Assembly (NCBI GenBank): GCA_045113315.1
Contig: JBGUIX010000015.1
Coordinates: 8,670-72,669, forward strand
Origin: Bacilli bacterium
GTDB taxonomy: Bacteria; Bacillota_I; Bacilli_A; RFN20; CAG-826
Reading direction: 5' to 3'
DNA length: 64,000 nt
Positions 3,245 to 42,112 of this stretch are shown in pieces (the first letter of the stretch is position 1; each line of letters begins with the position of its first letter). The notes under the pieces are model-generated. The model did not search any database. It saw only the letters and a program-made list of their open reading frames with translations, and was not told where the DNA came from. The position numbers and the translations under genes were made by a program.

Positions 3245-4182
3245 TGGAATATAGTTCAAAAGGAACAAAAAAAATAAAAGATAGCAATAACAATAATAAA
3301 AAATTAGATAAATTTTATACTAATTCGGACATCGTTGATAAAGTCATTAATTACTTAATTAATTTATTTGCCGATAATAGCATTGATATAAACAAATATT
3401 CATTTTTAGAACCATGTGCAGGCGGAGGAGCATTTTTGAATGGCTTGGAAAAAGCGTTGCCTAAAACCAAATGTGTTTCATTTGATATCGCTCCAGAAGA
3501 TCCACGAATAAAAAAAGCAGATTTTTTAAGCATAGAACATCACTTCAATCCTAATCTTATTACTATTGGAAACCCCCCTTTTGGATATAAGGGCGATTTA
3601 GCCTGTTCTTTTATCAATACATGTTCAGAGTGGGGTCCAATCGTTGTATTTGTTTTACCAATTCAATTTAGAAGATTTAATATTCAAAAACATATTTACC
3701 CTAATTTGAAATTGATTTATTCTTCAGAAGATCTTCCTAAGAACTCTTTTAATTTAGAAGGGAAAAAATATGATGTGAATTGTTTGTTTCAAATTTGGGT
3801 AGATAAGTTTTCTGGATTATTTGAAAACTATGAGGATTTAAGACTTTTAAAACCTCTTCCAAATAAACATGAAGATTTTAAATTGTTTATTCACAACAAC
3901 ACTATGGAGACACTTAAATATTTTGATAAAGAAAAATATTGTTGGGATTTTGCTGTCGCAAGGCAAGGCTTCTATGACTATTCTAAAAGGATTACAAATC
4001 CAAAAGAGCTTCAGCAACATGTCCAATATTTATTTGTGAAATATGTTAATCCTGTTTCAAAAAAAGTTTTTGATCACATAGATTTTGAAAAATTATCACA
4101 TGTAAATACAGCAATACTTGGGTATTCAAATACAGATGTTGTTGCTGAATACATTCGTGTTAAAAATGAATTAAAATTATAA
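3244..4182 (+). CDS. N6-adenine DNA methyltransferase
   Basis: LDKFYT, FLEPCAGGGAF (SAM-binding motif I), IGNPPFG (motif IV); GGAGG RBS before the ATG at 3244. Confidence 0.85.
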   Translation: MEYSSKGTKKIKDSNNNNKKLDKFYTNSDIVDKVINYLINLFADNSIDINKYSFLEPCAGGGAFLNGLEKALPKTKCVSFDIAPEDPRIKKADFLSIEHHFNPNLITIGNPPFGYKGDLACSFINTCSEWGPIVVFVLPIQFRRFNIQKHIYPNLKLIYSSEDLPKNSFNLEGKKYDVNCLFQIWVDKFSGLFENYEDLRLLKPLPNKHEDFKLFIHNNTMETLKYFDKEKYCWDFAVARQGFYDYSKRITNPKELQQHVQYLFVKYVNPVSKKVFDHIDFEKLSHVNTAILGYSNTDVVAEYIRVKNELKL

Positions 4183-4427: not shown

Positions 4428-5150
4428 ATGAGTGAATTGGTAAAATTTTTAAAAGATGTCAGTGAAAATAGATCATCTTTATTACAGGCACAAAATGGTG
4501 AAACTTGTGAACAGTTATTTCGTGGCAAACTTAAAACTTATTTTGTTGACATGTCCGCTTCTGATGATGAAAATATTCTAAATTTCAAGAAAAGCATCAA
4601 AAATAAAATATTAAACAAGAACGGTCCTAGCGTTATCGAAAATACTTTATATAAGAATACTCAAAATGGGATGTATAAGGACTTTTTTATTGCACAACCC
4701 TATGGGACCCAAAATTACCCTGATTTTCTTATTTTTACCAGTTTCAGAGTTTTTTCAATTGAGATAAAGTATTCCACAAAGAAGTCTGTTAGGCCTATGT
4801 GGAATTCCAATCTACCTAAAATGGATGGAATCTATTTTTTTGGTTGCTATAGATTAAAACAATTGACTTTTTTCAGAGGCGAAGACATGTTGCCATTCAA
4901 GGAAAGAGAAACACTTTTAAATATATGGGATATGTTGGAAAAGAAGAAAAAAGACTGGGACAAAACATTCAAAAGAGGAATTAAAACCAAAGAGTTTGAA
5001 AATGAATATGGTTTTGGACCTTATATTAGAAAGGCCTATTCACAATCAAAAGAGTTCAATAAACACGCTACTATTAATCTTTTTGACAATCCAAAAAAAT
5101 CTCAATTGGAGAATAAAGTCATAGAGTTTGTTGAAGAAAAAGACAAATAG
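4428..5150 (+). CDS. Putative type II restriction endonuclease (PD-(D/E)XK)
   Basis: QPYGTQNYPDFLIF...SIEIKYS catalytic motif followed by PMWNSNLP; lies next to the MTase. Confidence 0.65.
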   Translation: MSELVKFLKDVSENRSSLLQAQNGETCEQLFRGKLKTYFVDMSASDDENILNFKKSIKNKILNKNGPSVIENTLYKNTQNGMYKDFFIAQPYGTQNYPDFLIFTSFRVFSIEIKYSTKKSVRPMWNSNLPKMDGIYFFGCYRLKQLTFFRGEDMLPFKERETLLNIWDMLEKKKKDWDKTFKRGIKTKEFENEYGFGPYIRKAYSQSKEFNKHATINLFDNPKKSQLENKVIEFVEEKDK

Positions 5151-5220: not shown

Positions 5221-5281
5221 AAAAAATAATGTTTTGTTATGGCTTATAAACTTCTATATCATTAGAAGTGGAGGTAGATAT

Positions 5282-6604
5282 ATGGCTATTTCAGATACTA
5301 GAATTCATAACATAGAATTATTACTTACGTTAGATTATTTATTAAAACATACAGATGAGAATCATCCTGCGACTCAACAAGAGATATGTAAACACGCGAT
5401 TAAATATGGACTTAAATATGATCCTAAAGCCACTAAAGGCAATGATGTAAGAAGACAACGTATTGGAGAATGTTTAAAGTTTTTAAGTGAGATCTGCGGT
5501 AAATTTCCTGATGATACACCTTTTATTTTAGAAACTACTGATTCTGGTAAATATTATATTGATCAAAGACAAGGTCTTCATGATTTACAAGTGGCCAAGA
5601 TACTTGCCGCTATTAAAAATGATAGATATACAAAAGATGAAGATGCTTCTTTTTTAATAGATAAAGTATTAGATGCTTGTTCAACAAGTGAATATAACCG
5701 AGCAGAGATAAAAAGAATATATAAAGAATTAATACGTAGTGTTAGAAAATACGATAGTGAAACAATACGTAAGATAAATCTTATTGAAAAAGCTTATAAA
5801 GAAAGCAAATCAATTCTAGTTAGACATAGTGTTAATGATCCTAAACGTCATGTCATTGTAGATTATGATTTCTTATATCGTGTTTATCTAGTTAAAGAAT
5901 ATAACCACGAATTATATGCTTTGTTAATTCCAGTGGGCCAACTCAATGTTAATGAAAAGATTGGTAGATTAGTTTTCTTTAATAACTATATATTCGAGCC
6001 TATTAGTAAGATTAATATCCCCAACATAGAAGCGAGACAATTACTTTGTACTGACGAAAAGAATAGAGATTTCAATGAACTATTTAGAAAAGCTAATCCT
6101 TTATTGGCGAAGAAATATCATACTATAGATGAAATGTTAGAAAAAACCATTCTTCCTAAAGGTGGTAAGTCATGTATTGTTTCTTTCTATTTCCATCTTG
6201 GATTAAAAGATATATTAAGAAGATCTTTTGAAAACTACTTTAATGAAGAATTCAGATATCAAGAAACTGCATTAATAAAAGGAGTGGAATCCACTATAAA
6301 AGATGTGGTTCAAGGCATGGATAATTGGGTTATTATAACGGATGAAAATAAAGATCTAAAACCAACACATGGCTTAGTTAATCTATATGTGGATAATAAA
6401 GCGTTCAAATCATGGTTATTATCTGATCCACATGGAGAAGGTAATTTCTCTATTATGGATATGATTACTTTAATCAAACCGACTTCTTTACATGAAGAAA
6501 TCGCTAATTACTATAAGAAGAGATTAATAAAAGAGATTAACTATTTAAGTGAAAATTCAAAGGATGAATTATACGATGCACTCATACAAAACAATAAAAA
6601 ATAA
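5282..6604 (+). CDS. WYL-type transcriptional regulator (wHTH plus divergent WYL/WCX)
   Basis: N-terminal LLTLDYLLKHTDENHPATQQEI matches the wHTH start of the WYL protein at 25141; GGAGG RBS before the ATG at 5282. Confidence 0.65.
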   Translation: MAISDTRIHNIELLLTLDYLLKHTDENHPATQQEICKHAIKYGLKYDPKATKGNDVRRQRIGECLKFLSEICGKFPDDTPFILETTDSGKYYIDQRQGLHDLQVAKILAAIKNDRYTKDEDASFLIDKVLDACSTSEYNRAEIKRIYKELIRSVRKYDSETIRKINLIEKAYKESKSILVRHSVNDPKRHVIVDYDFLYRVYLVKEYNHELYALLIPVGQLNVNEKIGRLVFFNNYIFEPISKINIPNIEARQLLCTDEKNRDFNELFRKANPLLAKKYHTIDEMLEKTILPKGGKSCIVSFYFHLGLKDILRRSFENYFNEEFRYQETALIKGVESTIKDVVQGMDNWVIITDENKDLKPTHGLVNLYVDNKAFKSWLLSDPHGEGNFSIMDMITLIKPTSLHEEIANYYKKRLIKEINYLSENSKDELYDALIQNNKK

Positions 6605-6634: not shown

Positions 6635-6663
6635 TTGTAATTATCATTTTCTATTACCATAAT
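6635..6663 (+). promoter_or_regulatory. Sigma-70-type promoter for riboswitch 1
   Basis: TTGTAA-17 nt-CATAAT, placing +1 near 6670 at the start of P1. Confidence 0.55.
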
Positions 6664-6670
6664 ATATAGC

Positions 6671-6756
6671 GTCATAAAGAGAACGGCGAGGGACAAGCCC
6701 GTTGACCCGTCAGCAACTTACTCAAGTGAGCAAAGTGCTAAAGCTTGTGCGATGAC
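6671..6756 (+). ncRNA. SAM-I (S-box)-type riboswitch aptamer, compact P4-less variant (copy 1)
   Basis: P1 GTCAT/ATGAC; J1/2 AAGAG; kink-turn P2 ACGGcGAGGGACAAGCCCgttGAcCCGT; P3 GCAAC...GTGC; pseudoknot ACAAGC/GCTTGT. Confidence 0.85.
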
Positions 6757-6767
6757 TTATTTTATTT

Positions 6768-6800
6768 TGCTCATCGCGAAATGCGGTGAGCATTTTTTAT
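6768..6800 (+). terminator. Riboswitch 1 terminator
   Basis: TGCTCATCGC-gaaat-GCGGTGAGCA-TTTTTT; 5' arm TCATCGC can instead pair with GCGATGA of P1 (antiterminator). Confidence 0.85.
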
Positions 6801-6820
6801 CCCCAATCTTCTCAAAGCTA

Positions 6821-6838
6821 TGTACGCATACAAGTACA
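6821..6838. promoter_or_regulatory. TGTAC-N8-GTACA operator, site 2
   Basis: taTGTAC-GCATACAA-GTACAta, perfect arms. Confidence 0.65.
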
Positions 6839-6993
6839 TAACTAATCAATTGAGAAACACACATGTAATTGCGTTTTATAGTAATTACGAAGCTAAGCTA
6901 GAAACTTATCTTCAATCGTTCTTTGAAAACTAAATAATTAACCGCGCCAATACCTTACTTTACCTATTTTTATTTAGAAAGAGAAATGATGAA

Positions 6994-7605
6994 ATGAATT
7001 GTTTAAACTATGACAACAAAGAAAAGTACATCAGTGAAATAAATAAGCTGAATGATAAAGAAAAAAGAGAACAATATGAATTATCATCAGCGATAATTAA
7101 TCACATTGAATATGACTATAACCTATTAAAAGCTACAATCTATTTAAAGTTCCTATTACCTATTAGAAATTTTTTAAGAAAAAACATATCAATAGATGAT
7201 TTAAAAAAAGCCGTGTATGACTGTTTTAACTACTGTATTGATAACAATTCTTACTTCTTACATTTTCATAGCAGTATCGAAGATAAGAATGAATTTGAAT
7301 ATGTAGAAAAACGTGAAGATTCTCCGATAGAAATTATTGATGGTTTGATTGATTATTTATATGACGAGACACACAAAAATTATGATAGATTGATGAATTT
7401 ATATGTGTCATTTAAAGAGTTCTCAAATTATGTTTTTAGAAAACTATCCACGTCACATAAAAATTTTGAAAATCAAATACAAAAATTTGAAAAAGAAAAT
7501 CATATAAAAACCGGCGAAGACATCTACCACACTCTACAAAGTGTGTTTAAAAGAACAATCTTCGAAATATTTTTAATCGAAGAAGTTAACCATGAAGAAA
7601 GATAA
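6994..7605 (+). CDS. Hypothetical helical protein, paralog of 14430..15056
   Basis: MNCLNYDNKEKYISEINKLND vs MNCFNFNNKQSYMDYVQSLSD; KREDSPIEIID vs SKEDSIQIIE. Confidence 0.7.
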   Translation: MNCLNYDNKEKYISEINKLNDKEKREQYELSSAIINHIEYDYNLLKATIYLKFLLPIRNFLRKNISIDDLKKAVYDCFNYCIDNNSYFLHFHSSIEDKNEFEYVEKREDSPIEIIDGLIDYLYDETHKNYDRLMNLYVSFKEFSNYVFRKLSTSHKNFENQIQKFEKENHIKTGEDIYHTLQSVFKRTIFEIFLIEEVNHEER

Positions 7606-9037
7606 AAGAAAAGAGGTACCAAAAATGACAGAAAACAAAAAACACTTATTAGAAGATAACTATGATGTTATCGAAACAGATGACGAAGAAGAAGTAGTAA
7701 TAAAATATCTTAATGGCCGTCCTTATGTAATAAACGAAGATGGGGAAGTCATTTTTAAAGATAATGTTCCATCATACGAATTAATCTATGCTTCTAAATT
7801 AAAAGAAGATGAAAAGCCCCTTGGTAATGTCATTGGCCACGAGAATCAAAAGAAAGAACTTCTTTCTGTGATTGACTGGTTTAAACATTCCAAAGAATTA
7901 AAAGCTAAAGGTGTTTCAATTCCTAAAGGAGTTGTCCTCTTTGGTGCCCCTGGAAATGGTAAATCATTATTAATTAAAGAGATTATTAGATGCTGCGAAG
8001 CCCCGGTATTTATTTTTCAAGGTGAACAAATAAATGTTGTTGGTGGAATTGTTGAAACATTTAAAAAAGCTCGAGAAGCCGGGCACGCTATTATTGTCTT
8101 TGATGAATTAGATTTACTTATTAATAGAGAAAGAAGAGTGGTAAGAGCCCTTCAAGAAAATCTTGATGGTGTTGAATCTAACGATGACATTTTAGTGTTA
8201 GCAGCGACAAATTATCTTGATGAAATTCCCCAACCATTATTAAGAAATGGTCGATTAGAAAAACTTATTAAAATTCCATATCCAACTGGTGAAGAAGCTC
8301 TAGAATTATTCAAAAAGCACTGTAAAGAATTCAAAGTAACATTACCAGAAGATTTCGATGATGAAGAAGTAGCTTTATCACTTAATGGAATTACTTGCGC
8401 TGGCGTTAAAGCAGTAGTGAACGATATTGTTTTAAGAAATGGTTTCGAAAATATCACTAGTGAGATGATTGATAATTCTATTTATAACATCACAGATAGA
8501 GTGAAAGATGCTCCTGAAGAAGATAATTTAGAAGTTGCTATCCACGAAGCTGGTCACGCTGTTGTTGCTAAATCATATCCACAATATTTTCTAATCAATA
8601 GACTTAATATTTCAGGGGCAAGTGGTGAATTTCACGCTAAAGAAGTTGAGAAAGATTTCTGGCCTTATGAAAAAGTGATTGCCGACATCAAAGTTTCGAT
8701 GGCGGGCATCCTTGCTCAAAAGATTATCTGTGGTAGAGGTTCAAGAGGTTGCGATAGCGATTTACAAAGAGCAAGAATCAATGCTTACAATATGCTTAAT
8801 ATGTGTGGTTATTCATCTTGCGCTGAAACACTCCCTGTCATTAGACAAGGCGCTAGAACCGAAACTTCCATTAAGCGCAGAAAGATGGAAAAGAAGATTG
8901 AAAAACTTCTTAAAAAGTGTGAGAAAGAAACATCTAAATACATCAAAGAACACAAGAGTCAAATCAATGCGCTTGGTAAGCTTCTCTTTGAGAAGAAACA
9001 TCTTAAATCATCAGAAATCCTATCCTGTCTTGGGTAG
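7592..9037 (+). CDS. Soluble FtsH-like AAA+ ATPase / M41 zinc protease
   Basis: Walker A GAPGNGKS, Walker B IVFDE, SRH ATN...LLRNGRLE, HEAGH zinc motif, GCDSDL; no TM segment. Confidence 0.85.
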   Translation: MKKDKRKEVPKMTENKKHLLEDNYDVIETDDEEEVVIKYLNGRPYVINEDGEVIFKDNVPSYELIYASKLKEDEKPLGNVIGHENQKKELLSVIDWFKHSKELKAKGVSIPKGVVLFGAPGNGKSLLIKEIIRCCEAPVFIFQGEQINVVGGIVETFKKAREAGHAIIVFDELDLLINRERRVVRALQENLDGVESNDDILVLAATNYLDEIPQPLLRNGRLEKLIKIPYPTGEEALELFKKHCKEFKVTLPEDFDDEEVALSLNGITCAGVKAVVNDIVLRNGFENITSEMIDNSIYNITDRVKDAPEEDNLEVAIHEAGHAVVAKSYPQYFLINRLNISGASGEFHAKEVEKDFWPYEKVIADIKVSMAGILAQKIICGRGSRGCDSDLQRARINAYNMLNMCGYSSCAETLPVIRQGARTETSIKRRKMEKKIEKLLKKCEKETSKYIKEHKSQINALGKLLFEKKHLKSSEILSCLG

Positions 9038-9061
9038 GATCTCTGATAAGGAGAATCATAC

Positions 9062-9469
9062 ATGTTAGAAGATATTAAATATGTCCGTTTGGGATTAGAA
9101 AATGTCGAAATTATAGATATCAACATTAAAGACATTGACCTAATGATACAAGACATTAGTGAGTTTGATTTAACCGTAATGAATAGCAGCCTTATTAAAA
9201 GAAGAAAAGAATGTAAAAAAGCATTCTTCACTCTTCTTAAAACCGCAGATAAACCATACGACGAAAAGAGTGAAACAACAGTTTTTGAAAGACTAAGAAA
9301 ATTTAATGATATCATTGACATTTCTTATTTAGACGAAAACAAAAACGAGATAGATACAATCTATATGCCCTGGGAATATAACACATTTAATCTAGCGGAA
9401 AACATCTATCAAAAATCAAAAATTGATGATTATGGAAGATTACAGATACTAATTGAAAAAGGAGAATAA
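9062..9469 (+). CDS. Hypothetical protein
   Basis: 135-aa ORF, AAGGAG RBS, operonic spacing. Confidence 0.7.
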   Translation: MLEDIKYVRLGLENVEIIDINIKDIDLMIQDISEFDLTVMNSSLIKRRKECKKAFFTLLKTADKPYDEKSETTVFERLRKFNDIIDISYLDENKNEIDTIYMPWEYNTFNLAENIYQKSKIDDYGRLQILIEKGE

Positions 9470-9479
9470 AGATTAATAA

Positions 9480-10019
9480 ATGGAATTACCAAAATTAACA
9501 CGTAAGATTGCTAAACAAGTTGATGAAGAATATAGAAAAGAAGAAAAGAATAAACCCGATATCAAGGCTATAACTATTGATGATGTTTTAATTATTAATT
9601 CTCTTTGTCTATTTACAGGCGAACCACATCAAATTCTAAATAAAGCAGCAATCGAATCCGCTCTTGGCAATCAATATCAACCTTATTCAAGACGTGAATT
9701 AGCGTATGCAAGTGTCTATAAATCATTAGTCCTTAACCATGGATTTATGAATGGGAACAAACGTACCGCTGTCATTGCTTTATATATTGCAAGTTTATTG
9801 ATAGGCAATGATTTAAAAATCAATGATAAAAATTTAGCAAAGTTAACTTATAGGATCGCTGGTGAAAACGGTAGTCAAATTCCAGTTGAAGAAATTGCTG
9901 AGAATGTCTTTAAGTCATATACATCATATGACGATTTCAAAGAAGTTAATGATGTCGCCTATTATGTTCGTAAATTTATTAATGAACATGAATGGTTGAT
10001 GAAGGAACTCGGAAAATAG
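9480..10019 (+). CDS. Fic/Doc family protein (Doc-like)
   Basis: NHGFMNGNKRTA matches the Doc-type HxFxxGNKR motif. Confidence 0.85.
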   Translation: MELPKLTRKIAKQVDEEYRKEEKNKPDIKAITIDDVLIINSLCLFTGEPHQILNKAAIESALGNQYQPYSRRELAYASVYKSLVLNHGFMNGNKRTAVIALYIASLLIGNDLKINDKNLAKLTYRIAGENGSQIPVEEIAENVFKSYTSYDDFKEVNDVAYYVRKFINEHEWLMKELGK

Positions 10020-10031
10020 AAGGAAAAAAAG

Positions 10032-10706
10032 ATGGAGTACGATTTAACAGAAATTATTTCAAATATTAAAAACAAAGATAAAATTTCTATTTCATACATT
10101 CAAAGAAACTTCTCGTTTGGCTTTAATAAATCTTATAAAGTTTTTCAAAATCTTATTGAAAAAGGTTATGTAGATAAAGAAGGCAATGTTAATAAAGAAA
10201 AAGTCGATTCAAATTATGTAGAAGGACCAAAAGTTATCTTTCTAGATGTCGATGGTGTTCTTAATTGTCGTTCTACAAAAGATAAATGTGGTGGCTATAT
10301 CGGGATTGATGATAACAAAGTCGCTTTGCTAAAAGAAATTGTGGATGCTACTGGAGCTATTATTATTCTTGTCTCTTCTTGGAAAGAATGGTGGACAAAC
10401 AATCCAAGATATAAGCCCAATCAAGATGAAATGGCTACATATTTAGACGAAAAACTAGCCAAACAAGGTTTGATTATTAGAGATAAGACTCGAGATGGTA
10501 ATTCTTTAAGAAGAGGCAAAGGAATTATTCGATTCATCGAAATGCAAAAGGAAATCGGAATCGATATTAGTAAGTATATTATTCTTGATGATGAGATGTT
10601 TGATTATTTAGAAACTAAAATGACACGTCATTTAATTCGCACTAGTTTTGAGCAAAACGGATTAGAAAGAAAACACGTGAGAAAGGCGATTATGAAATTA
10701 TGTTAG
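10032..10706 (+). CDS. FtsK-gamma-like wHTH fused to HAD domain (Swiss-Army-Knife RNA-repair type)
   Basis: ISISYIQRNFSFGFNKSYKVFQNLIEKGYV (FtsK gamma-like); IFLDVDGVLN, LVSSWK, YIILDD HAD motifs. Confidence 0.75.
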   Translation: MEYDLTEIISNIKNKDKISISYIQRNFSFGFNKSYKVFQNLIEKGYVDKEGNVNKEKVDSNYVEGPKVIFLDVDGVLNCRSTKDKCGGYIGIDDNKVALLKEIVDATGAIIILVSSWKEWWTNNPRYKPNQDEMATYLDEKLAKQGLIIRDKTRDGNSLRRGKGIIRFIEMQKEIGIDISKYIILDDEMFDYLETKMTRHLIRTSFEQNGLERKHVRKAIMKLC

Positions 10707-11539
10707 GCGCAATTATTGGTGATATGGTAGGTTCAATGTATGAATTCCATCCATGCAAAACAAAGAAGTTCAATATTTACGATCAAAGAATGAGAATGAC
10801 TGATGATTCTTTACTGACAATAGCAGTCGCTAAGACTTTATTAAAACATTATCCAATTGATTATTCAGATGAGTCTTTAAAAGCAATTCAAAATGATTTG
10901 ATTAAAGAATTTGTAGAAGCTTGGAGATTTAATAAAGGTGCGGGCTTTGGTGGCATGTTCTTTAATTGGTGCATGGAAGCAAGATATGGAAGAGCCAAGC
11001 CTTATAATTCCTATGGTAATGGTAGTGCGATGAGAATATCTCCGGTTGCTTGGATAGCGGATTCAGAAGAACACTTAAAACTACTATCAAAAACAGTTAC
11101 TGAAATCACTCATAATCATCCTGAAGGAATTAAAGGAGCAGAGGCAGTAGCGATGTGTATCTATCTTGCTCTTCATGGATCTAGCAAGGAAGAAATTAAA
11201 GAAAGAATGGTCATTGAATATTACCCTGAAATTGCTTCATTTTCCTTTGAAAACCTTGTAAAAACCTATGCTTTTTCTGAAATTTGCCAAAAATCAGTAC
11301 CTCAAGCTATTTACTGTTTTCTTGTTTCGGATAGTTTAGAAGATGCGATTAGAAACTGTGTAGCAATAGGTGGGGATTGTGATACGACCGGAGCGATGGC
11401 GGGAGCAATCGCAGAAGCCTATTATCAAAAAGAAAAACTATCAGATTTTGAAGATAAATTTCTCTATCTCATGATTGATCCTGATGTTGAACAACTAATA
11501 AAACAATTCCATAAAACCATTGGCAGTAAGAAGTTTTAA
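10700..11539 (+). CDS. ADP-ribosylglycohydrolase (DraG/ARH family)
   Basis: GAIIGDMVGS, MTDDS, SYGNGSAMRISP, THNHPEG, GGDCDTTGAMAGAIAEA. Confidence 0.93.
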   Translation: MLGAIIGDMVGSMYEFHPCKTKKFNIYDQRMRMTDDSLLTIAVAKTLLKHYPIDYSDESLKAIQNDLIKEFVEAWRFNKGAGFGGMFFNWCMEARYGRAKPYNSYGNGSAMRISPVAWIADSEEHLKLLSKTVTEITHNHPEGIKGAEAVAMCIYLALHGSSKEEIKERMVIEYYPEIASFSFENLVKTYAFSEICQKSVPQAIYCFLVSDSLEDAIRNCVAIGGDCDTTGAMAGAIAEAYYQKEKLSDFEDKFLYLMIDPDVEQLIKQFHKTIGSKKF

Positions 11540-11540
11540 A

Positions 11541-11738
11541 ATGAAAGAATATGAAATAAAAATCATCCTTGATAAAGTGGAAATATCAAAAGATTTCAGA
11601 GTTATATGTTGGACGGAGATATATAAAGGCAATAAACGAGGCGCAATTAAAAGAGCAAAAGAATTACAGAAAGAGTGGAAAGCGGAGTTCTACGAAATTA
11701 ACAAAATTCAGAAAAGAGGATTTAATAATGAAATTTGA
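11541..11738 (+). CDS. Small hypothetical protein
   Basis: 65-aa ORF from the ATG at 11541, filling the operon gap. Confidence 0.55.
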   Translation: MKEYEIKIILDKVEISKDFRVICWTEIYKGNKRGAIKRAKELQKEWKAEFYEINKIQKRGFNNEI

Positions 11739-12324
11739 CGTAAATAAAGTAATTGATGAATTAAAAAGAAAAAATCAAAAAGGTTTTATTTTGGAATCAC
11801 ATCTCCAAGTTGAATTTGGTTACGCTATAAAGGAAGTGTATACAAATGCTGAGATAGTGTTTGAATATCCTTTTGATATGAATGGCAATAATAAAAGAAT
11901 GGATATTAGAGCAACTATAGGAGAAGAAACTATTGGCTTTGAATTTAAATATTTTACAAAATCTCAGGAGCTTGAATTAAGAAAAGGTTTTATTGTTCCT
12001 CTTAAAGACCAAGTTTGCAAAGATCTACACAGGATCGGTTTTTGGAAAGATGTTCAAAAAATAGAATACGCAATCAAACATAACCTTATTGATGAAGGAT
12101 ATTGCATTCTAATGACAAATGATTTGTCGATTTTTAATCCAGTTAAAGCTACAAATAATGATAAGGATTTTGATATTTCAAAAGGAATAAAGCCTGGGAA
12201 AAAAATATTGAAATATCCAGGCAAGCCACAACACGATGTATCACTTATTAAAACAGACTACAGTTTAGACCATTGCGCTTATTCTGAATATTTAGAAATA
12301 ATGTGCATTCCAGTGACAAAATAA
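11728..12324 (+). CDS. Putative PD-(D/E)XK nuclease
   Basis: ESHLQ...FEYP...RMDI...GFEFKY pattern; AGAGGA RBS before the ATG at 11728. Confidence 0.65.
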   Translation: MKFDVNKVIDELKRKNQKGFILESHLQVEFGYAIKEVYTNAEIVFEYPFDMNGNNKRMDIRATIGEETIGFEFKYFTKSQELELRKGFIVPLKDQVCKDLHRIGFWKDVQKIEYAIKHNLIDEGYCILMTNDLSIFNPVKATNNDKDFDISKGIKPGKKILKYPGKPQHDVSLIKTDYSLDHCAYSEYLEIMCIPVTK

Positions 12325-12340
12325 ATAATTTTTATACACA

Positions 12341-12424
12341 TCCATAAAGAGTGTGGTTAGGGACAAGCCCTATGATCCACCGACAACCCAAGTAATGTTG
12401 GGTGCCAAAGCTTGTACGATGGGA
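12341..12424 (+). ncRNA. SAM-I (S-box)-type riboswitch aptamer, compact P4-less variant (copy 2)
   Basis: P1 TCCAT/ATGGG; AAGAG; P2 GTGGttAGGGACAAGCCCtatGAtCCAC; P3 gaCAACC...GGTGCC; pseudoknot ACAAGC/GCTTGT as in copy 1. Confidence 0.82.
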
Positions 12425-12442
12425 ATAATAAAACTATTTAAT

Positions 12443-12469
12443 ACTCCTATCGTAACGATGGGAGTTTTT
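12443..12469 (+). terminator. Riboswitch 2 terminator
   Basis: ACTCCTATCG-taa-CGATGGGAGT-TTTT; 5' arm TCCTATCGTA can instead pair with TACGATGGGA (12415-12424). Confidence 0.82.
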
Positions 12470-12501
12470 AATTCCTCTTTATGGTGATTTAAGGAGGAAT
12501 T

Positions 12502-13059
12502 ATGGAAGACTTATTAGAAAAAGACTGTATTGTTGTTGCAAACGAGTGGGAACTTTTGTCTTTGTGTTTGGAATATAAAATCCCATGCAAACCAATTCAT
12601 ACAAGTTTCTTTAACCGCGATTCAACTAAATATGCATTTGTCATTTCAAAATGCGGAGTTAGGGAATGCGATGCAAATGTTCCGGTTGATTTAACGGTTT
12701 TTAAAACAATTAATTCTTTAAAGTTTTATCTTTTTAAGCATGCTCTTTTCAGCGGCAAAATTGTTGTTCACAAGGTGAATTATCACATTTATCTGAAAAC
12801 AATTAAATATCTCAGGAAATTAGGTATAAGAACTATTAAGGATAAAACATATTTTGAAGATGCCGACAGTTTCTATGTTTCTTGTGGGAGTTTCAAAGAA
12901 CTTAGTTATTTTGGATGCAAATGCGTTGTAACGATGACAAATGGTTTGCAATTTAAAGCTCGTGATTTTTTGAACACTCTCAAAGAGTTTTTTAAGAATA
13001 GAAATGACTATAAAAAGCATATTACTTATTACCAATCAAAGGTGGGGGAGGAATTATAA
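12502..13059 (+). CDS. Hypothetical protein directly downstream of riboswitch 2
   Basis: 185-aa ORF with strong AAGGAGG RBS; no sulfur or methionine metabolism motif recognised. Confidence 0.7.
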   Translation: MEDLLEKDCIVVANEWELLSLCLEYKIPCKPIHTSFFNRDSTKYAFVISKCGVRECDANVPVDLTVFKTINSLKFYLFKHALFSGKIVVHKVNYHIYLKTIKYLRKLGIRTIKDKTYFEDADSFYVSCGSFKELSYFGCKCVVTMTNGLQFKARDFLNTLKEFFKNRNDYKKHITYYQSKVGEEL

Positions 13060-13857
13060 ATGAATATTAATAATGACAGAAAAAGACCATTTTTAGAAGA
13101 ACCTGTATATAATGGTTGTCCTATTTCTTGGGCTGAACGTTTTTTTCAAGGCAAAGTGTCTGAATTCCGCAAGGCAAACAAAGAATTTGATTCATTTCTA
13201 ATCGGAATAGAACAAGAAATCAGAGAAAGAAAAATTACGTATTGCAACAATATTTTGCTTTTTATCAGTGGTGGAGCCAAAGTGAATTGGGTTTCGCCTA
13301 AAAAATCACTTTTTCGAACATTAATTAAACTATACAACTACGACTTCAGTCCTAAGCAAGCAGTTGATCATATTGAACGGTGCTATTCGAATTATCAAAG
13401 ACTATTAAATGATGAACTTGAAATGGGCAATGATTATGAATTATTTACCGCCAGAATACGATGGGATTCTTCTATGAAAGATTTTGTTGAATTAACTTTG
13501 TCTCCAAAGAGAAAAAATCCTTTGATTTTAAAACCATATTGGATACGTGTGTGTTTTTGTTCTATGCAAATCGATATAGGCAATAACCCATACAATGATT
13601 ATCCTGACGATGATAACAAAATAGATTTAATTGCAGACGAATCAACGTATGAAGACGCATTATCTTTATTTGATTATTGCAATGGAAATCATTTTACTAG
13701 AAGAATCATGAATATCACGATTAAAAAGTTAATTGAGAATAAGATAATTAGCAAGCAACCAGATGAAACAGTCAGCGGATATTCAAAAACACATTTGTTC
13801 ACATATTCAGTTAACGTCAAACGTTATTTAAAACTTAAAGAAGATAAAGGGTGGTGA
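13060..13857 (+). CDS. Hypothetical protein
   Basis: 265-aa ORF abutting the previous stop, GGAGG RBS. Confidence 0.65.
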   Translation: MNINNDRKRPFLEEPVYNGCPISWAERFFQGKVSEFRKANKEFDSFLIGIEQEIRERKITYCNNILLFISGGAKVNWVSPKKSLFRTLIKLYNYDFSPKQAVDHIERCYSNYQRLLNDELEMGNDYELFTARIRWDSSMKDFVELTLSPKRKNPLILKPYWIRVCFCSMQIDIGNNPYNDYPDDDNKIDLIADESTYEDALSLFDYCNGNHFTRRIMNITIKKLIENKIISKQPDETVSGYSKTHLFTYSVNVKRYLKLKEDKGW

Positions 13858-13863
13858 TGGCAA

Positions 13864-14175
13864 ATGTCGATAGGCGAATTAATTGGCAATAAACAATATA
13901 TGTTTGCACGCGACAACTTTTGGTCAAAGCTTAAAGAAAAACTAATTGAAAATGGGTATGAAGACGAAGTTGGAACAGAAAGTTTCGTGGCGATAGTTGT
14001 CGATAATGAATACAAATGGTTTTATCCGGTACCAGGTATATTTATGTATTGGAAATATAGTTTAAATAGAAAACCGCCATTAAAGCAATTGTCAGCAAAA
14101 GATATCTTTGATAATTTTGAAAAACTAATTATAGAGAAGGACATTGATTTCTATAACAAACTCATTAGGAGCTAG
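13864..14175 (+). CDS. Hypothetical protein
   Basis: 103-aa operonic ORF. Confidence 0.6.
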   Translation: MSIGELIGNKQYMFARDNFWSKLKEKLIENGYEDEVGTESFVAIVVDNEYKWFYPVPGIFMYWKYSLNRKPPLKQLSAKDIFDNFEKLIIEKDIDFYNKLIRS

Positions 14176-14429: not shown

Positions 14430-15056
14430 ATGAATTGTTTCAATTTCAACAACAAACAATCTTATATGGACTATGTCCAATCATTATCTGATGGAGATAT
14501 CATTCTCCAAAGAAAACTTATGTCCAATTTATTAGATGATCTTAAATCTAAATATTATGACATTAAGTTAAATATCGAATTAAGTGTTATTCCAACCTTA
14601 AAATCAATCGCTAGAAAAAGAAGCCTTTCTGCAGGCAACCTCTATTTCAAACAAGCGCTAGAAAATTTCTTCAGTATGCATTCATGTGATAAAGAATATC
14701 TTAAAAGCTTAAAGAATTACTCTAACTCTGCTCGCGATGATTCTGAATATAGTAAAGAAGATTCTATCCAAATTATTGAGAATACATATAATCAAATCAC
14801 TTCTGAAGATGAAAGTGGTGTATACGATAAGTGCCTTTCTTTACTTAACTTAATCATTAACCAAAGCGCGATTGTTATGTATAGACTATATAATGTCGCC
14901 TTATTAGATGAAGAAGAATTAAGACCGTTCTTAACCGCTCCAAAAGTTTTATTTGGTGGTCTTAACGAAAAAGGCGAACCAGATCTTAAATATTCAGTAA
15001 GAAGATATATGTATCAAATTCAGTTCGACATTAAGTTTGTCGAGAATAACTTCTAG
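14430..15056 (+). CDS. Hypothetical helical protein, paralog of 6994..7605
   Basis: Shared N-terminus and internal motif with 6994; GAGG RBS. Confidence 0.7.
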   Translation: MNCFNFNNKQSYMDYVQSLSDGDIILQRKLMSNLLDDLKSKYYDIKLNIELSVIPTLKSIARKRSLSAGNLYFKQALENFFSMHSCDKEYLKSLKNYSNSARDDSEYSKEDSIQIIENTYNQITSEDESGVYDKCLSLLNLIINQSAIVMYRLYNVALLDEEELRPFLTAPKVLFGGLNEKGEPDLKYSVRRYMYQIQFDIKFVENNF

Positions 15057-15074: not shown

Positions 15075-16160
15075 ATGTTAAAAACATTAACTTTAAAATT
15101 TTGGGAGCCTTTCTTTAAAGTTGCCAAAATTAATGGAGGCTGCCCTGTAAAAATTGTTTATGGCTGTCCAGAAGGTAAGACATCAATTATCTACGATGAT
15201 TTAAGCAAAGCCGAGAACGTTTTAGTTTATGGCACGACCGGTAGTGGTAAGTCAGTCTTTTTACATGTTTTTATTAAAGGGGCTTCAATAGTCAATACTG
15301 TTGAAGATGTAAGATTCGTTCTGGTCGATTCTAAAAAAATTGAATTTAATCAATATAAAAACAGCGAATTATTACATTGCCCAATTATCAATAGGGGTGA
15401 TGAATTATTAGCTAAAACTAAAGAATTGATTAACGAGTGTCATAAGAGAAAAGAAGTAATTGGAGATAACGACTTTGAAGCTTCTAGAAAGCAAAATAAC
15501 CAGCATTTTCCATATATTTTGTTAGTTATTGATGAATATGCCGATATAGCAAATAAGGAATTAAACAACACTTTATTAGAACTTATGAAGGATGGATTTA
15601 AATATGGAATCCATGTAGTTTTATCCACACAAAGAATAAGTGAAGATAATATTAACTTCTTTAAATCTTTCAAAACCATTGTTTGCCAAACCAATTATGA
15701 TGAAAAAGAAACGCGTGCACTAATTGGAGATTATGTTGAACTGAATGGTGGTGGTGACTCGCTGGTTCTTCGCAATGGCGAGTTAACCAGAACACAAGGT
15801 TTATATACTTCCTATAATGAAGACTTATCCGCAAAAGTGGATGAATGTGTTATGTCTATGGAAACGTGGATATTTGAAATGTTAGCAAAACACAACGATG
15901 AAATTCTAGTTCCAGTAGATGAAAACAACGAAATCATAATCAGAAAGAAAGTAGTTACTATTTATAATCCTTTGAATTATGTAAAAGCTGATATTTATGA
16001 TAAGCATAGAAAGGTAAAAATGAAATTCTGGACATTATTGAAATCAATTAGAGGTAAGAGATTAAATATTCGATTGGAAAATAATTATTCTTCATACTAT
16101 TCGTGTCGCATGCACGAGGGATGGTATAATCAATGGTGGAAGAAATATAAAAACAACTGA
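15075..16160 (+). CDS. FtsK/SpoIIIE-like P-loop ATPase (no TM, no gamma domain)
   Basis: NVLVYGTTGSGKS, FVLVDSKKIEF, ILLVIDEYAD, GIHVVLSTQR. Confidence 0.85.
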   Translation: MLKTLTLKFWEPFFKVAKINGGCPVKIVYGCPEGKTSIIYDDLSKAENVLVYGTTGSGKSVFLHVFIKGASIVNTVEDVRFVLVDSKKIEFNQYKNSELLHCPIINRGDELLAKTKELINECHKRKEVIGDNDFEASRKQNNQHFPYILLVIDEYADIANKELNNTLLELMKDGFKYGIHVVLSTQRISEDNINFFKSFKTIVCQTNYDEKETRALIGDYVELNGGGDSLVLRNGELTRTQGLYTSYNEDLSAKVDECVMSMETWIFEMLAKHNDEILVPVDENNEIIIRKKVVTIYNPLNYVKADIYDKHRKVKMKFWTLLKSIRGKRLNIRLENNYSSYYSCRMHEGWYNQWWKKYKNN

Positions 16161-16161
16161 T

Positions 16162-21190: not shown

Positions 21191-21233
21191 GTAAAAAAGT
21201 ATGATATATTGTTATAAAACGTAGGAGATAATT

Positions 21234-42066: not shown

Positions 42067-42112
42067 TAATTGCTATATATAATCCCACCTGAAGTATGGA
42101 GGGATTTTTATT

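What the first reader, a model, noticed from the sequence alone, without database searches (positions are those of the whole stretch)
6635..12469. Two SAM-I-type riboswitches gate defence-island operons instead of methionine genes: candidate SAM-depletion alarm
Seen: aptamers at 6671-6756 and 12341-12424 both carry the S-box core (AAGAG, kink-turn P2, CAAC/GTGC pocket, L2 pseudoknot). Each is followed by a terminator whose 5' arm can alternatively pair with the P1 3' strand (GCGATGA/TCATCGC; TACGATGGGA/TCCTATCGTA), the standard ON-when-SAM-is-low platform. The two platforms differ in sequence yet both keep this pairing. Downstream genes are an FtsH-like protease, Doc/Fic, HAD, ADP-ribosylglycohydrolase, a nuclease and unknowns, with no met/metK/transport gene recognisable. 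A SAM-dependent DNA MTase lies about 2.5 kb upstream. Known: S-boxes normally control Met/Cys/SAM genes, and phage T3 SAM lyase depletes SAM to defeat type I R-M and BREX. Inference: the switches may guard methylation-based defence by inducing second-line effectors when SAM falls. Caveat: copy 1 is about 190 nt from its gene, with an operator in between.
Basis: partly seen in the sequence, partly recalled or inferred. Interest (0 to 1): 0.9.

Follow-up and report, generated by a model that had tools for sequence, protein, structure and literature searches.

The report
SAM riboswitches gating conflict-island operons
Two genuine S-adenosylmethionine-sensing RNA switches sit in front of toxin, protease and repair genes rather than methionine genes, and the same odd pairing recurs in related gut bacteria, so low SAM appears to switch on a set of accessory "conflict" genes.

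Summary
Rfam finds SAM-I aptamers at 6669-6758 (50 bits, above cut-off) and 12339-12425 (40 bits, just below). Both lack P4. Each is followed by an intrinsic terminator whose 5' arm can pair with the P1 3' strand, which is the OFF-with-SAM design. Downstream are an FtsH-like protease, Doc, HAD_SAK_2, an ADP-ribosylglycohydrolase and unknowns, and no Met gene.

New here: the link is conserved. Homologues of the first gene after switch 2 (28% and 66% identical) carry the same aptamer directly upstream. In 151 genomes of the same family, 13 of 61 SAM-I hits precede island-type genes: two unnamed domain families that I call A and B, Fic, a weak HipA-like match, FtsH-like, and MoxR-VWA-MetK-like. 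Ten hits precede housekeeping metK. Elsewhere in the class, short aptamers of this form precede metK and metN, so they are real SAM sensors.

I conclude that low SAM licenses transcription of these accessory operons. Why it does so is open. Coupling to starvation and a hidden SAM-economy role are equally alive. I class this as a new variant of a known kind, with interest 0.7.

The parts
3223..4182 (+). 319-aa putative N6-adenine DNA methyltransferase (context)
   Evidence: Motif I EPCAGGGAF and motif IV NPPF only. No Pfam hit even at E 5 and no PDB sequence hit.
4428..5150 (+). 240-aa putative PD-(D/E)xK restriction endonuclease partner (context)
   Evidence: D-x15-ExK motif only. No family hit.
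5234..6604 (+). 456-aa unknown protein that ends just before switch 1
   Evidence: No Pfam hit. A homologue lies downstream of a SAM aptamer next to an ARH-like gene in L035.
6635..6663 (+). promoter-like site directly 5' of aptamer 1
   Evidence: TTGTAA-17-CATAAT, 9 of 12. This is a consensus match only.
6669..6758 (+). SAM-I aptamer 1, lacking P4
   Evidence: RF00162 50.0 bits against a gathering score of 44.4. It fits the covarying alignment A2.
6768..6800 (+). intrinsic terminator 1; its 5' arm (6771-6777) can pair with the P1 3' strand (6749-6755) as an antiterminator
   Evidence: sequence.
6801..6993 (+). structured leader between terminator 1 and the first gene (nested inverted repeats)
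   Evidence: MFE -35.8 kcal/mol, z -4.17, 0 of 200 shuffles as stable. Inverted repeats. No Rfam match. No + strand promoter-like site here.
6994..7605 (+). 203-aa protein of the all-helical 'B' family (paralogue of 14430-15056)
   Evidence: 28% identical to 14430-15056. Included in alignment A4. No Pfam hit.
7592..9037 (+). 481-aa soluble FtsH-like AAA+/M41 protease
   Evidence: AAA E 1.4e-22 and Peptidase_M41 E 7.2e-17. Walker A and HEAGH present. Partial IetA-like PADLOC matches.
9062..9469 (+). 135-aa protein, phrog_2349; its position suggests a Doc partner
   Evidence: phrog_2349 E 6.7e-12. No PDB or Pfam hit. The antitoxin role is inference.
9480..10019 (+). Doc-type Fic kinase toxin
   Evidence: TIGR01550 E 1.4e-9 and phrog_577 E 7e-14. 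Motif HGFMNGNKR.
10032..10706 (+). FtsK_gamma wHTH + HAD_SAK_2 phosphatase-like protein
   Evidence: Pfam E 1.9e-8 and 6e-20.
10700..11539 (+). ADP-ribosylglycohydrolase
   Evidence: PF03747 E 9.1e-40. phrog_6572 E 1e-49.
11569..12324 (+). 251-aa unknown, possible PD-(D/E)xK nuclease; its stop is 15 nt before aptamer 2
   Evidence: Motif read from the sequence. No Pfam or PDB hit. Homologues in L006 and L031.
12339..12425 (+). SAM-I aptamer 2, lacking P4, with an A.C mismatch at the base of P3
   Evidence: RF00162 40.0 bits, below gathering. The same aptamer lies before orthologues in L006/L007 (40.7 bits) and G213 (37.2 bits). Alignment A2.
12443..12470 (+). intrinsic terminator 2; 12445-12454 can pair with the P1 3' strand 12415-12424
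   Evidence: sequence.
12502..13059 (+). 185-aa protein whose N-terminal ~80 aa is the 'A' domain that recurs as the first gene after SAM aptamers
   Evidence: 12 close homologues, all unnamed. hhalign against small A-domain proteins gives probability 88.7, E 2.6e-6. AF2 pLDDT 79 with no PDB fold match.
13060..14175 (+). two unknown genes (265 aa, 103 aa) of operon 2
   Evidence: No family hits. The 265-aa protein has a 44% homologue at the same place in L006.
14430..15056 (+). 208-aa 'B' family protein
   Evidence: 72 unnamed homologues. AF2 pLDDT 93.5, all-helical, with no PDB match. Fused to the A domain in L031 and in P0163.
15075..16764 (+). FtsK/SpoIIIE-family ATPase (361 aa) and a 200-aa unknown
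   Evidence: PF01580 E 6e-20. An FtsK-like gene also follows in the G213 island.
20744..23249 (+). context: second HAD_SAK_2 protein and GmrSD-type restriction enzyme
   Evidence: Pfam E 2.2e-17 and 4.5e-32.

Best explanation
Both elements are working SAM-I (S-box) transcription attenuators. When SAM is plentiful the aptamer closes P1, the downstream terminator forms and transcription stops. When SAM falls, the P1 3' strand pairs with the terminator's 5' arm and RNA polymerase reads on.

Switch 1 has its own promoter-like site. It gates the B-family gene, the FtsH-like protease, a putative antitoxin, Doc, HAD_SAK_2, ARH and a putative nuclease. Switch 2 sits 15 nt after that operon's last stop codon. 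It acts as a second, serial checkpoint before the A-family gene, two unknowns, a second B-family gene and the FtsK-like ATPase.

The window is one instance of a lineage-wide extension of the S-box regulon in small-genome uncultured Bacilli. That extension reaches accessory, conflict-type modules (toxins, AAA+ proteases, MoxR-VWA pairs) typically headed by the A and/or B domain.

Shown: aptamer identity, structure covariation, the platforms, and the conserved gene association. Inferred: SAM binding, read-through at low SAM, and co-transcription. The biological purpose is not settled. My reading is that low SAM is used as a licence to express costly or toxic modules. I cannot yet tell whether that low SAM comes from starvation or from sabotage by phage.
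For: Aptamers: RF00162 at 50 and 40 bits.

Structure: in an alignment of 36 P4-less aptamers from this family, 93.0% of cells pair against 83.3% in shuffles (0 of 500 reach it). 15 of 27 pairs show compensatory changes. The covariation score is 0.317 against 0.136, and slid controls score 0.10 or less. The P1 A-U/U-A pairs, the two P3 pairs C-G and A-U next to the bulged A, and the 4-bp pseudoknot are invariant in 36 of 36.

Platforms: (28 of 47 predicted terminators have at least 7 contiguous antiterminator pairs; W1 has 8 and W2 has 9).

Real SAM sensors: in other families of the class, short aptamers of this form precede metK (10 full-length plus 3 fragmented), MetN (L074 against PDB 3dhw, E 8e-87) and a Cys/Met PLP enzyme.

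Conserved association: homologues of the gene at 12502 have the aptamer directly upstream in G213 (28% id, another genus) and in L006/L007 (66% id). 13 of 61 family hits precede A, B, FtsH-like, MoxR/VWA, Fic, HipA-like or ARH genes. An A-domain gene follows an aptamer in a different family (L096). In G457, another family, aptamers sit in tandem before MoxR+DUF2201.

Accessory status: relatives of 6994 were not found in 11 same-genus genomes, nor relatives of 12502 in 3.
Against: No binding, termination or expression data exist. The only runs holding the stretch are low-depth contigs that are probably DNA.

Copy 2 and its orthologues score below Rfam's cut-off and carry an A.C mismatch next to the pocket, so their affinity or even their ligand could differ.

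Copy 1 is 236 nt from its gene, across a strongly structured leader of unknown role. A promoter missed by the simple scan could bypass the switch.

In L006 the FtsH-like operon has no aptamer within the 2 kb available upstream, so switch 1's association is less conserved than switch 2's.

L115 has an A-domain gene without an aptamer, though that gene carries an in-frame stop.

The label 'island-type' rests on Pfam names and on BLAST clusters that I defined. The HipA_C match is below Pfam's cut-off (27 against 30.5 bits).

Related genomes are not independent samples.
Confidence: 0.72

Rival explanations
1. Nutritional reading. In these ~1.3-Mb genomes SAM reports methionine supply. The switches couple growth-arrest, proteolysis and repair modules (Doc, Fic, a HipA-like gene, an FtsH-like protease, an HD_4 alarmone-hydrolase-like protein) to methionine/SAM starvation. 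This would be a dormancy or stress programme and not anti-phage immunity.
For: In relatives the hibernation factor gene hpf follows metK behind the same kind of switch (L025: S-AdoMet_synt then Ribosomal_S30AE; cluster 1 has 10 members). Other aptamers in the family precede an HD_4-Sel1 protein, EamA, MFS and Na/H-exchanger genes. Doc, Fic and HipA are classic growth-arrest toxins (established knowledge). G000's own metK has no Rfam-detectable leader, and only 3 SAM-I copies exist in the genome.
Against: The genes are accessory and patchy, which is unusual for a core starvation response. They sit among R-M-like, GmrSD and Cas4-like genes. No methionine-pathway inventory of the genome was made here.
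Confidence: 0.33
2. The switches are a guard on methylation-based immunity. A phage SAM lyase, or another SAM-destroying counter-defence, lowers SAM. The terminators open and second-line effectors are made (Doc, protease, nuclease, ARH/HAD repair).
For: OFF-with-SAM logic. Setting: a motif-level type II MTase/REase pair directly upstream, GmrSD downstream and two N6_Mtase genes on contig C8. Patchy, accessory, modular distribution with toxin-type cargo. Divergent MetK-like genes sit behind the switch with MoxR-VWA pairs and could be back-up SAM synthetases. That T3 SAM lyase defeats SAM-dependent defences is recalled knowledge. A search listing shows that a BREX paper uses the term 'SAM depletion' (listing only).
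Against: No gene here matches a validated defence system; PADLOC gives only partial IetA-like AAA hits. No relatives were found in viral contigs or phage records for the A and B families. No SAM lyase was sought or found in phages of this lineage. Host transcription must survive infection for the scheme to work. The same switches also gate transporters and hpf, which need no phage.
Confidence: 0.2
3. Hidden SAM-economy reading. The unknown A, B and FGase-like proteins and the MoxR-VWA-MetK-like sets take part in making, salvaging or sparing SAM or methionine. One example would be an activase for an alternative SAM synthetase. On this view the riboswitch logic is canonical and the toxin and repair genes are passengers.
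For: MetK-like genes in the G213 and G321 operons. MetK-like 349-350-aa paralogues lie directly behind aptamers in L041 and L063. FGase-like hydrolases lie behind 6 aptamers in the family and 1 outside it, and one is fused to the A domain in P0139. MoxR-VWA pairs act as enzyme activases elsewhere (CbbQO, NorQD; recalled).
Against: The window's two operons contain no MetK-like, FGase-like or transporter gene. A and B have no Pfam hit and no Foldseek match at E <= 0.001 (best VIA-align Z 2.9 for A), so nothing ties them to sulfur metabolism. Doc, ARH and HAD_SAK_2 have no known role there.
Confidence: 0.15
4. Relic or by-product. The aptamers were carried in with recombined cassettes and now act only as constitutive terminators or small RNAs, with no SAM-dependent control of the downstream genes.
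For: Many island aptamers and their terminators are very similar in sequence, for example ACTCCTATCGTAACGATGGGAGT in W2, L067 and L071. This suggests spread as a cassette.
Against: Strong covariation and invariant pocket nucleotides. Terminator and antiterminator are kept even where the sequences differ, as between W1 and W2. The association is kept at 28% protein identity. The one decayed case, L115, lost both the aptamer and the reading frame.
Confidence: 0.05

Closest known systems
Canonical S-box / SAM-I riboswitch regulon of Bacillota (RF00162; metK, metE, metNIQ, yitJ leaders)
   Same: Same aptamer core, same terminator/antiterminator OFF logic and same ligand-contact positions. In this very lineage the same RNA also controls metK and metN.
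   Different: The genes controlled here are Doc, an FtsH-like protease, HAD_SAK_2, ARH and unknown A/B proteins. None is a sulfur, methionine or SAM gene. P4 is missing. Two switches act in series along one gene string.
SAM-I/IV and SAM-IV members of the SAM clan (CL00012)
   Same: A SAM-I-like pocket without a P4 hairpin in the four-way-junction position.
   Different: Rfam's clan competition kept RF00162 as the best model. I saw no extra 3' P4/pseudoknot element, because the terminator begins about 10-20 nt after P1. I did not score RF01725 or RF00634 separately.
c-di-GMP riboswitches next to type I toxin-antitoxin modules and CRISPR arrays in Clostridioides difficile (PMC5961336; search listing and start of abstract only)
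   Same: A metabolite or second-messenger riboswitch placed among defence and TA genes, away from its textbook regulon.
   Different: A different ligand and a different RNA class. That paper's details were not read here.
Guard-type defences that sense a phage's attack on another defence (retrons guarding RecBCD, PARIS sensing Ocr; recalled)
   Same: If the alarm reading is right, the logic is the same: detect sabotage of first-line immunity and release a second line.
   Different: The sensor would be an RNA reading a metabolite pool, and not a protein or retron msDNA. Nothing here shows anti-phage activity.
Phd/Doc toxin-antitoxin modules
   Same: The Doc signature HxFx(D/N)(A/G)NKR and TIGR01550/phrog_577 matches. 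A small upstream gene lies in the antitoxin position.
   Different: No Phd-family match for the upstream gene. The module is embedded in a seven-gene string behind a riboswitch, and not autoregulated as a two-gene operon.
MoxR-VWA activase pairs (CbbQ/CbbO, NorQ/NorD; recalled) and MoxR-vWA conflict systems
   Same: AAA_5/AAA_3 MoxR-type ATPase followed by a VWA protein in G213, G321 and G457.
   Different: Here they lie behind a SAM riboswitch and, in G213 and G321, next to a 29%-identical MetK-like gene. They are absent from the window itself.

Membership tests
SAM-I riboswitch (RF00162) | Covariance-model score at or above Rfam's gathering score (44.4 bits) | tested here: met
   Copy 1 scores 50.0 bits. 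Copy 2 does NOT meet it at 40.0 bits, and its orthologues score 40.7 and 37.2 bits. This row is met for copy 1 only.
SAM-I riboswitch (RF00162) | Four-way junction with helices P1-P4 | tested here: not met
   P4 is replaced by 1-2 nt in both copies. Short forms of this kind reach up to 80 bits and precede metK and metN in other families, so this is natural variation within the family.
SAM-I riboswitch (RF00162) | P1, P2 and P3 helices supported by covariation; L2-J3/4 pseudoknot | tested here: met
   15 of 27 pairs show compensatory changes and 93% of cells pair (0 of 500 shuffles reach this). The pseudoknot CAAG/CUUG is invariant in 36 of 36, so it carries no covariation evidence.
SAM-I riboswitch (RF00162) | Conserved pocket nucleotides (P1 A-U/U-A pairs, the P3 C-G and A-U pairs flanking the bulged A, J1/2 AGAG) | tested here: met
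   These columns are invariant in A2. Which positions contact SAM is recalled from the published structure and does not come from a call. Copy 2 has an A.C mismatch one pair further out.
SAM-I riboswitch (RF00162) | Binds SAM and discriminates against SAH | not testable with these tools
   Needs in-line probing, ITC or a termination assay.
SAM-I riboswitch (RF00162) | Terminator/antiterminator expression platform overlapping the P1 3' strand | tested here: met
S-box regulon (functional class) | Controls methionine, cysteine or SAM synthesis or transport genes | tested here: not met
   None of the 10 downstream ORFs matches such a family in Pfam, NCBIfam, PHROGs or PADLOC. Five of them have no Pfam, NCBIfam or PADLOC match, so a hidden role is not excluded.
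Known anti-phage defence systems (PADLOC-DB 2.0) | Component proteins match a system's models | tested here: inconclusive
   Only the AAA part of 7592-9037 matches IetA models (E 6.8e-17). Doc gives weak PDC-S23 hits (E 3e-3). No partner genes were found.
Phd/Doc toxin-antitoxin | Doc Fic-fold toxin with the HxFx(D/N)(A/G)NKR motif plus an upstream Phd-type antitoxin | tested here: inconclusive
   The toxin signature is met. The upstream 135-aa gene has only phrog_2349 (unknown function) and no Phd match.
Type II restriction-modification (upstream context) | SAM-dependent MTase family membership plus a cognate endonuclease | tested here: inconclusive
   Motifs I and IV in 3223-4182 and D..ExK in 4428-5150. 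No Pfam or PDB match.

The most novel reading that the evidence does not exclude
SAM-I riboswitches have been recruited as RNA 'guards' of methylation-dependent immunity. When a phage destroys SAM or blocks MetK, the switches open. They release abortive-infection toxins (Doc, Fic) with a dedicated AAA+ protease. In sister islands they release a divergent, MoxR-VWA-serviced back-up SAM synthetase. The A and B domains would be the conserved adaptor or sensor pair of this new defence family.
Probability: 0.2. Interest if true: 0.92.

Novelty: new variant of a known kind. Interest (0 to 1): 0.7.

Why it matters
Riboswitch classes are usually treated as faithful markers of their metabolic regulon. 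Here a textbook SAM sensor is repeatedly wired to toxins, proteases, RNA-repair-type enzymes and two unnamed protein domains in accessory islands of small-genome gut Bacilli. The wiring recurs across genera and in at least two further families.

This gives a concrete, testable case of a primary-metabolite pool being read directly by conflict or dormancy systems. If the signal is phage-inflicted SAM loss, it would be the first RNA-based guard of immunity. If it is starvation, it links methionine status to toxin-antitoxin and hibernation control without a protein regulator.

Either way it supplies three things. The first is handles on two orphan protein families; the A domain has 84 clusters in 1.84 billion representatives. 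The second is a natural series of P4-less SAM-I aptamers, including a conserved A.C variant. The third is a MoxR-VWA-MetK-like module worth biochemical study.

Tried and rejected
Fold and family searches that gave nothing.
- The AF2 model of the gene at 12502 (pLDDT 79) had no Foldseek PDB match at E <= 0.001. The best VIA-align Z was 2.9 over 48,161 chains.
- The AF2 model of the gene at 14430 (pLDDT 93.5) had no Foldseek match at E <= 0.001.
- The ESM Atlas gave no usable hit for 12502. For 14430 it gave only sub-0.9 scores, including Imm5/Imm6 at 0.82-0.84, which I treat as chance level.
- Pfam at E <= 5 gave only noise for the unknowns, for example iSTAND at E 0.047 for 14430.
- PDB sequence searches of 3223-4182, 11569-12324, 9062-9469 and P0133 found nothing useful.

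Mobile-element origin.
- No relative of the A family was found in viral contigs.
- No relative of the B family was found in phage records.
- The FtsH-like protein has only generic FtsH-level (about 28%) matches in phages.
- There is no tRNA in the window and no GC break.
- I therefore do not call the region a prophage or ICE.

Expression.
- No RNA holder was listed.
- Four runs labelled metatranscriptomic but flagged as probably DNA hold identical low-depth contigs. One contig bridges terminator 1 (6727-7057) and one ends inside aptamer 2 (12016-12412). I draw nothing from this.

Other searches.
- The first genome contigs pattern scan with A1 found nothing.
- P0133 and P0168, long repeat proteins, matched the A profile many times. 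They look like unrelated beta-repeat proteins, and I set them aside.

Literature. Nine searches found no paper that links a SAM riboswitch to phage defence, SAM lyase, MoxR/vWA or toxin-antitoxin control. That is a statement about this library and these terms only. I read passages of PMC2258182. All other papers were seen as listings only, and supplements were not requested.

Choices of mine.
- I considered a complex prediction for A with B and did not run it, because no claim here depends on their binding.
- I did not scan RF01725 or RF00634 separately.

Selection caveat. The 42 class-level aptamers were picked by me for short length (95 nt or less) from the 151-genome scan. They are not a random sample.

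Full report
THE OBSERVATION

A whole-window Rfam scan at gathering thresholds returns two matches: an FMN riboswitch at 41950-42071 and a SAM-I (RF00162) aptamer at 6669-6758 (50.0 bits, cut-off 44.4). A permissive scan of 12000-12800 returns a second RF00162 match at 12339-12425 (40.0 bits, E 1.7e-7 for that stretch). That score is below the curated cut-off.

In both alignments the 18-19 model positions of P4 are replaced by 1-2 nt, so both aptamers are three-helix forms.

Each aptamer is followed by a strong hairpin with a T-run: 6768-6792 and 12443-12465. These are the only two convincing + strand terminator-like sites between 5100 and 14500. They fold at -16.9 and -15.1 kcal/mol (z -3.2 and -3.6).

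- 6749-6755 with 6771-6777.
- 12415-12424 with 12445-12454.

These give 8 and 9 contiguous pairs, reached by 2 and 1 of 200 shuffles of the P1 3' region. For copy 2 the centroid fold of the platform is the antiterminator itself.

A promoter-like site (TTGTAA-17-CATAAT) ends 6 nt before aptamer 1. None was found between terminator 1 and the ATG at 6994. Aptamer 2 begins 15 nt after the stop codon of the preceding gene (ORFs). Switch 2 therefore looks like an internal, second checkpoint on the same gene string.

THE GENES

Behind switch 1:
- A 203-aa unknown.
- A 481-aa AAA+/Peptidase_M41 protein with Walker A and HEAGH.
- A 135-aa protein (phrog_2349).
- Doc (TIGR01550, phrog_577, motif HGFMNGNKR).
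- An FtsK_gamma+HAD_SAK_2 protein.
- An ADP-ribosylglycohydrolase (E 9e-40).
- A 251-aa unknown with a D..ExK motif.

Behind switch 2:
- A 185-aa unknown, a 265-aa unknown and a 103-aa unknown.
- After a 255-nt gap, a 208-aa unknown that is 28% identical to the 203-aa protein.
- An FtsK/SpoIIIE-family ATPase and a 200-aa unknown.

No methionine, cysteine, SAM or transporter family was detected.

Around these operons lie:
- A 319-aa protein with MTase motifs I and IV, followed by a 240-aa protein with a PD-(D/E)xK-like motif. Both rest on motifs only; there is no Pfam or PDB support.
- A Cas4/DUF2779 protein on the other strand.
- A second HAD_SAK_2 protein, a GmrSD-type restriction enzyme and a SHOCT protein.

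The setting is therefore defence-island-like. PADLOC, however, recognises no complete known system.

ARE THE APTAMERS REAL SAM SENSORS?

The genome is 1.32 Mb in 15 contigs and 94% complete. It has only three SAM-I copies: the two here and one before a TMEM164-family membrane protein. Its metK has no Rfam-detectable leader.

I scanned 151 genomes of the same family (G000 among them) and found 61 RF00162 hits in 45 genomes. I then fetched the downstream DNA of all of them.

Thirty-six aptamers of 93 nt or less (32 of these hits, the two window copies, the G213:C5 copy and the metagenome locus L006) align into one P4-less family. In that alignment:
- 93.0% of pair cells are standard pairs, against 83.3% after shuffling (0 of 500 shuffles reach it).
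- 15 of 27 pairs have compensatory changes.
- The covariation score is 0.317, against 0.136 shuffled and 0.10 or less for slid controls.
- The two P1 pairs next to the junction, the C-G and A-U pairs of P3 beside the bulged A, J1/2 and the 4-bp L2/J3-4 pseudoknot never vary.

From recalled knowledge of the published SAM-I structure, these invariant positions are the ligand-contact and tertiary positions.

Copy 2 and seven other aptamers share an A.C mismatch one pair outside the pocket. This explains their lower Rfam scores and might tune affinity.

A class-level scan (151 genomes, 95 with hits) shows that short aptamers are common in other families. Of 42 that I picked for short length:
- 10 precede full-length metK.
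- 3 precede metK in fragments.
- 4 precede a MetN-type ABC ATPase. L074 matches E. coli MetN at E 8e-87; the others were placed by BLAST likeness.
- 1 precedes a Cys/Met PLP enzyme.

The P4-less form is therefore an ordinary, working member of the SAM-I family, which makes SAM the expected ligand here.

IS THE ODD ASSOCIATION CONSERVED?

Yes, and this is the main new result.

- The 185-aa protein has 12 close, unnamed homologues.
- In a search of 301 genomes of the order, one other genome (G213, a different genus) encodes a 28%-identical relative. A SAM-I aptamer (37.2 bits) lies directly upstream of it.
- Two metagenome contigs with a 66%-identical relative have the aptamer (40.7 bits) at the same place. 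They sit in an island syntenic with the window: FtsH-like 81%, HAD 43%, ARH 75%, the 251-aa protein 44% and the 265-aa protein 44%.

I clustered and annotated the genes behind all 61 family hits. The tally is:
- 10 housekeeping metK, usually followed by hpf. All have aptamers of 95-108 nt.
- 2 shorter MetK-like paralogues.
- 13 island-type loci (listed below).
- 6 FGase-like hydrolases.
- 9 transporter or membrane loci: EamA; an unknown plus MFS (three loci); a small ORF plus a Na/H exchanger plus an acyltransferase (three loci); TMEM164 (two loci).
- 3 Sel1 or HD_4-Sel1 proteins.
- The rest are unknown, distant or cut by contig ends. L015, L048, L059 and L065 have 127 nt or less downstream.

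The 13 island-type loci are:
- The two in the window.
- G213:C5: A-family gene, MoxR AAA_5, a 148-aa protein, VWA, a 29%-identical MetK-like gene, FtsK-like, and further on a B-family gene, WYL, SHOCT and FtsH-like.
- L043: MoxR, an unknown, VWA and MetK-like, by likeness to G213.
- L021: FtsH-like.
- L024: a small A-domain protein, then Fic.
- L033 and L039: A domain, HTH_3, a 233-aa protein, AAA_14/DUF4143.
- L030 and L031: an A+B fusion, then relatives of the 251-aa protein and of the HAD protein.
- L035: relatives of the 456-aa protein and of ARH.
- L053: a HipA_C match below Pfam's cut-off.
- L071: A domain.

Outside the family:
- L096 (another family) has an aptamer followed by an A-domain protein.
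- G457 (yet another family) has five short aptamers. Two are in series on one contig before a MoxR AAA_3 plus DUF2201 VWA-metallopeptidase pair, and one more precedes a second such pair.

Relatives of 6994 were not found in 11 same-genus genomes, nor relatives of 12502 in 3. The genes are therefore accessory.

TWO ORPHAN DOMAINS

The A domain.
- The N-terminal ~80 residues of the 185-aa protein are homologous to the 85-115-aa proteins that follow aptamers elsewhere (hhalign probability 88.7, E 2.6e-6).
- A profile of this A domain finds 84 clusters among 1.84 billion representatives. Most are stand-alone small proteins. Some are fused to the B family or to an FGase-like domain.

The B family.
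- It comprises 6994-7605 and 14430-15056, with 72 unnamed homologues.
- It models confidently as a helical bundle (pLDDT 93.5).

Neither family has a Foldseek match at E <= 0.001; for the A-family model the best VIA-align Z was 2.9. Their fusion in some genomes argues that they work together. Their function is unknown.

One A-domain gene without an aptamer (L115) carries an in-frame stop and only a terminator-like remnant upstream. I read it as a decayed copy.

HOW IT MOST LIKELY WORKS

Shown:
- SAM-I aptamers under structural selection.
- OFF-type platforms.
- A repeated, conserved placement before accessory conflict-type genes.

Inferred:
- High SAM terminates transcription at about 6800 and about 12470.
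- Low SAM lets polymerase read through both checkpoints, so the protease, Doc and its presumed partner, the repair-type enzymes and the A/B/FtsK-like set are made only when SAM is scarce.

I give the regulatory mechanism 0.72.

WHY SAM?

Three readings survive.

1. Nutritional licensing (0.33). The same lineage puts hpf behind metK under the switch. Other targets include an alarmone-hydrolase-like HD_4 protein and transporters. Doc, Fic and HipA are growth-arrest toxins.

2. The OFF logic, the R-M/GmrSD setting, the patchy modular cargo and the divergent MetK-like genes (possible back-up synthetases serviced by MoxR-VWA) all fit. However, no known defence system, no phage link and no SAM lyase was found. 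The switch also gates genes that need no phage.

3. A hidden SAM-economy role of the unknowns (0.15).

A relic explanation is unlikely (0.05), given the covariation and the conservation at 28% protein identity.

CAVEATS

- Copy 1 is separated from its gene by a 197-nt leader that folds far better than shuffles (z -4.17, 0 of 200) and matches no Rfam family. Its role is unexplained. It could be an RNA element, an operator or a processing site, and it could add or override control.
- In L006 the FtsH-like operon has no aptamer within the DNA available.
- Genomes of one family are not independent.
- My island-type class depends on Pfam names and on BLAST clusters.
- No usable RNA data were found.

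NOVELTY

Nine literature searches found no report that ties a SAM riboswitch to defence, SAM lyase, MoxR/vWA or toxin-antitoxin control. The nearest listed precedent for a riboswitch among TA and CRISPR genes concerns c-di-GMP in C. difficile (PMC5961336, listing only).

The RNA itself is a known class. What is new is the regulon, the serial arrangement and the two orphan domains tied to it. I therefore class it as a new variant of a known kind, with interest 0.7.

Noticed in passing
window 41950-42071 (+): FMN riboswitch (RF00050, 77.8 bits), immediately upstream of the 254-aa ORF at 42113-42877.
   Followed up: no
window 6801-6993 (+): The leader between terminator 1 and the first gene has nested inverted repeats. 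It folds at -35.8 kcal/mol (z -4.17, 0 of 200 shuffles) and has no Rfam match. Its role is unexplained.
   Followed up: partly
L025 338-2195 and cluster 1: In relatives the SAM riboswitch controls metK followed by the ribosome hibernation factor gene hpf (Ribosomal_S30AE). Ten loci share this second gene.
   Followed up: partly
G000:C1:103087-104226 (L008): The window's own genome has metK without any Rfam-detectable leader within 1.5 kb. All three of its SAM-I copies sit elsewhere: two in this island and one before a TMEM164-family membrane protein on C14.
   Followed up: partly
L014 13024-17393 (-), L043: A MoxR (AAA_5), 148-aa, VWA(CoxE-like) set is followed by a MetK-like protein only 29% identical to housekeeping MetK, all behind a SAM aptamer. 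It may be an activase plus an alternative SAM synthetase.
   Followed up: partly
L078, L079 (G457, another family): A 1.1-Mb genome has five short SAM-I aptamers. Two are in series on one contig before a MoxR AAA_3 + DUF2201 (VWA-metallopeptidase) pair, and another precedes a second such pair.
   Followed up: partly
L018, L020, L036, L058, L062, L064, L100; protein P0139: An N-formylglutamate-amidohydrolase-like (PF05013) family repeatedly follows SAM aptamers. In P0139 it appears fused to the A domain. Its substrate is unknown.
   Followed up: partly
alignment A2, columns 45-46 / 74-75: Eight of 36 P4-less aptamers, window copy 2 among them, share a G-C plus A.C arrangement at the base of P3 where the others have A-U plus G-C. 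This is a conserved variant next to the pocket.
   Followed up: partly
L115 431-685: An A-domain gene with an in-frame TAA. Upstream there is only a terminator-like remnant and no aptamer. It looks like a decaying copy of the cassette.
   Followed up: partly
L103, L108, L109: The metK behind the aptamer is split into 2-3 ORFs under table 11. The cause could be another genetic code (TGA read as an amino acid) or broken genes. Not examined.
   Followed up: no
window 16765-18270 (-), 19467-20747 (+): A Cas4/DUF2779 protein lies on the opposite strand. A 426-aa protein has only a short DNA_pol3_alpha NTPase-domain match. Both lie inside the same accessory stretch.
   Followed up: no
G000:C8:35560-37897 (L117, L118): Two adjacent N6_Mtase-family genes (506 and 435 aa open frames) sit elsewhere in the genome, so SAM-dependent R-M-type genes exist outside the window.
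   Followed up: no
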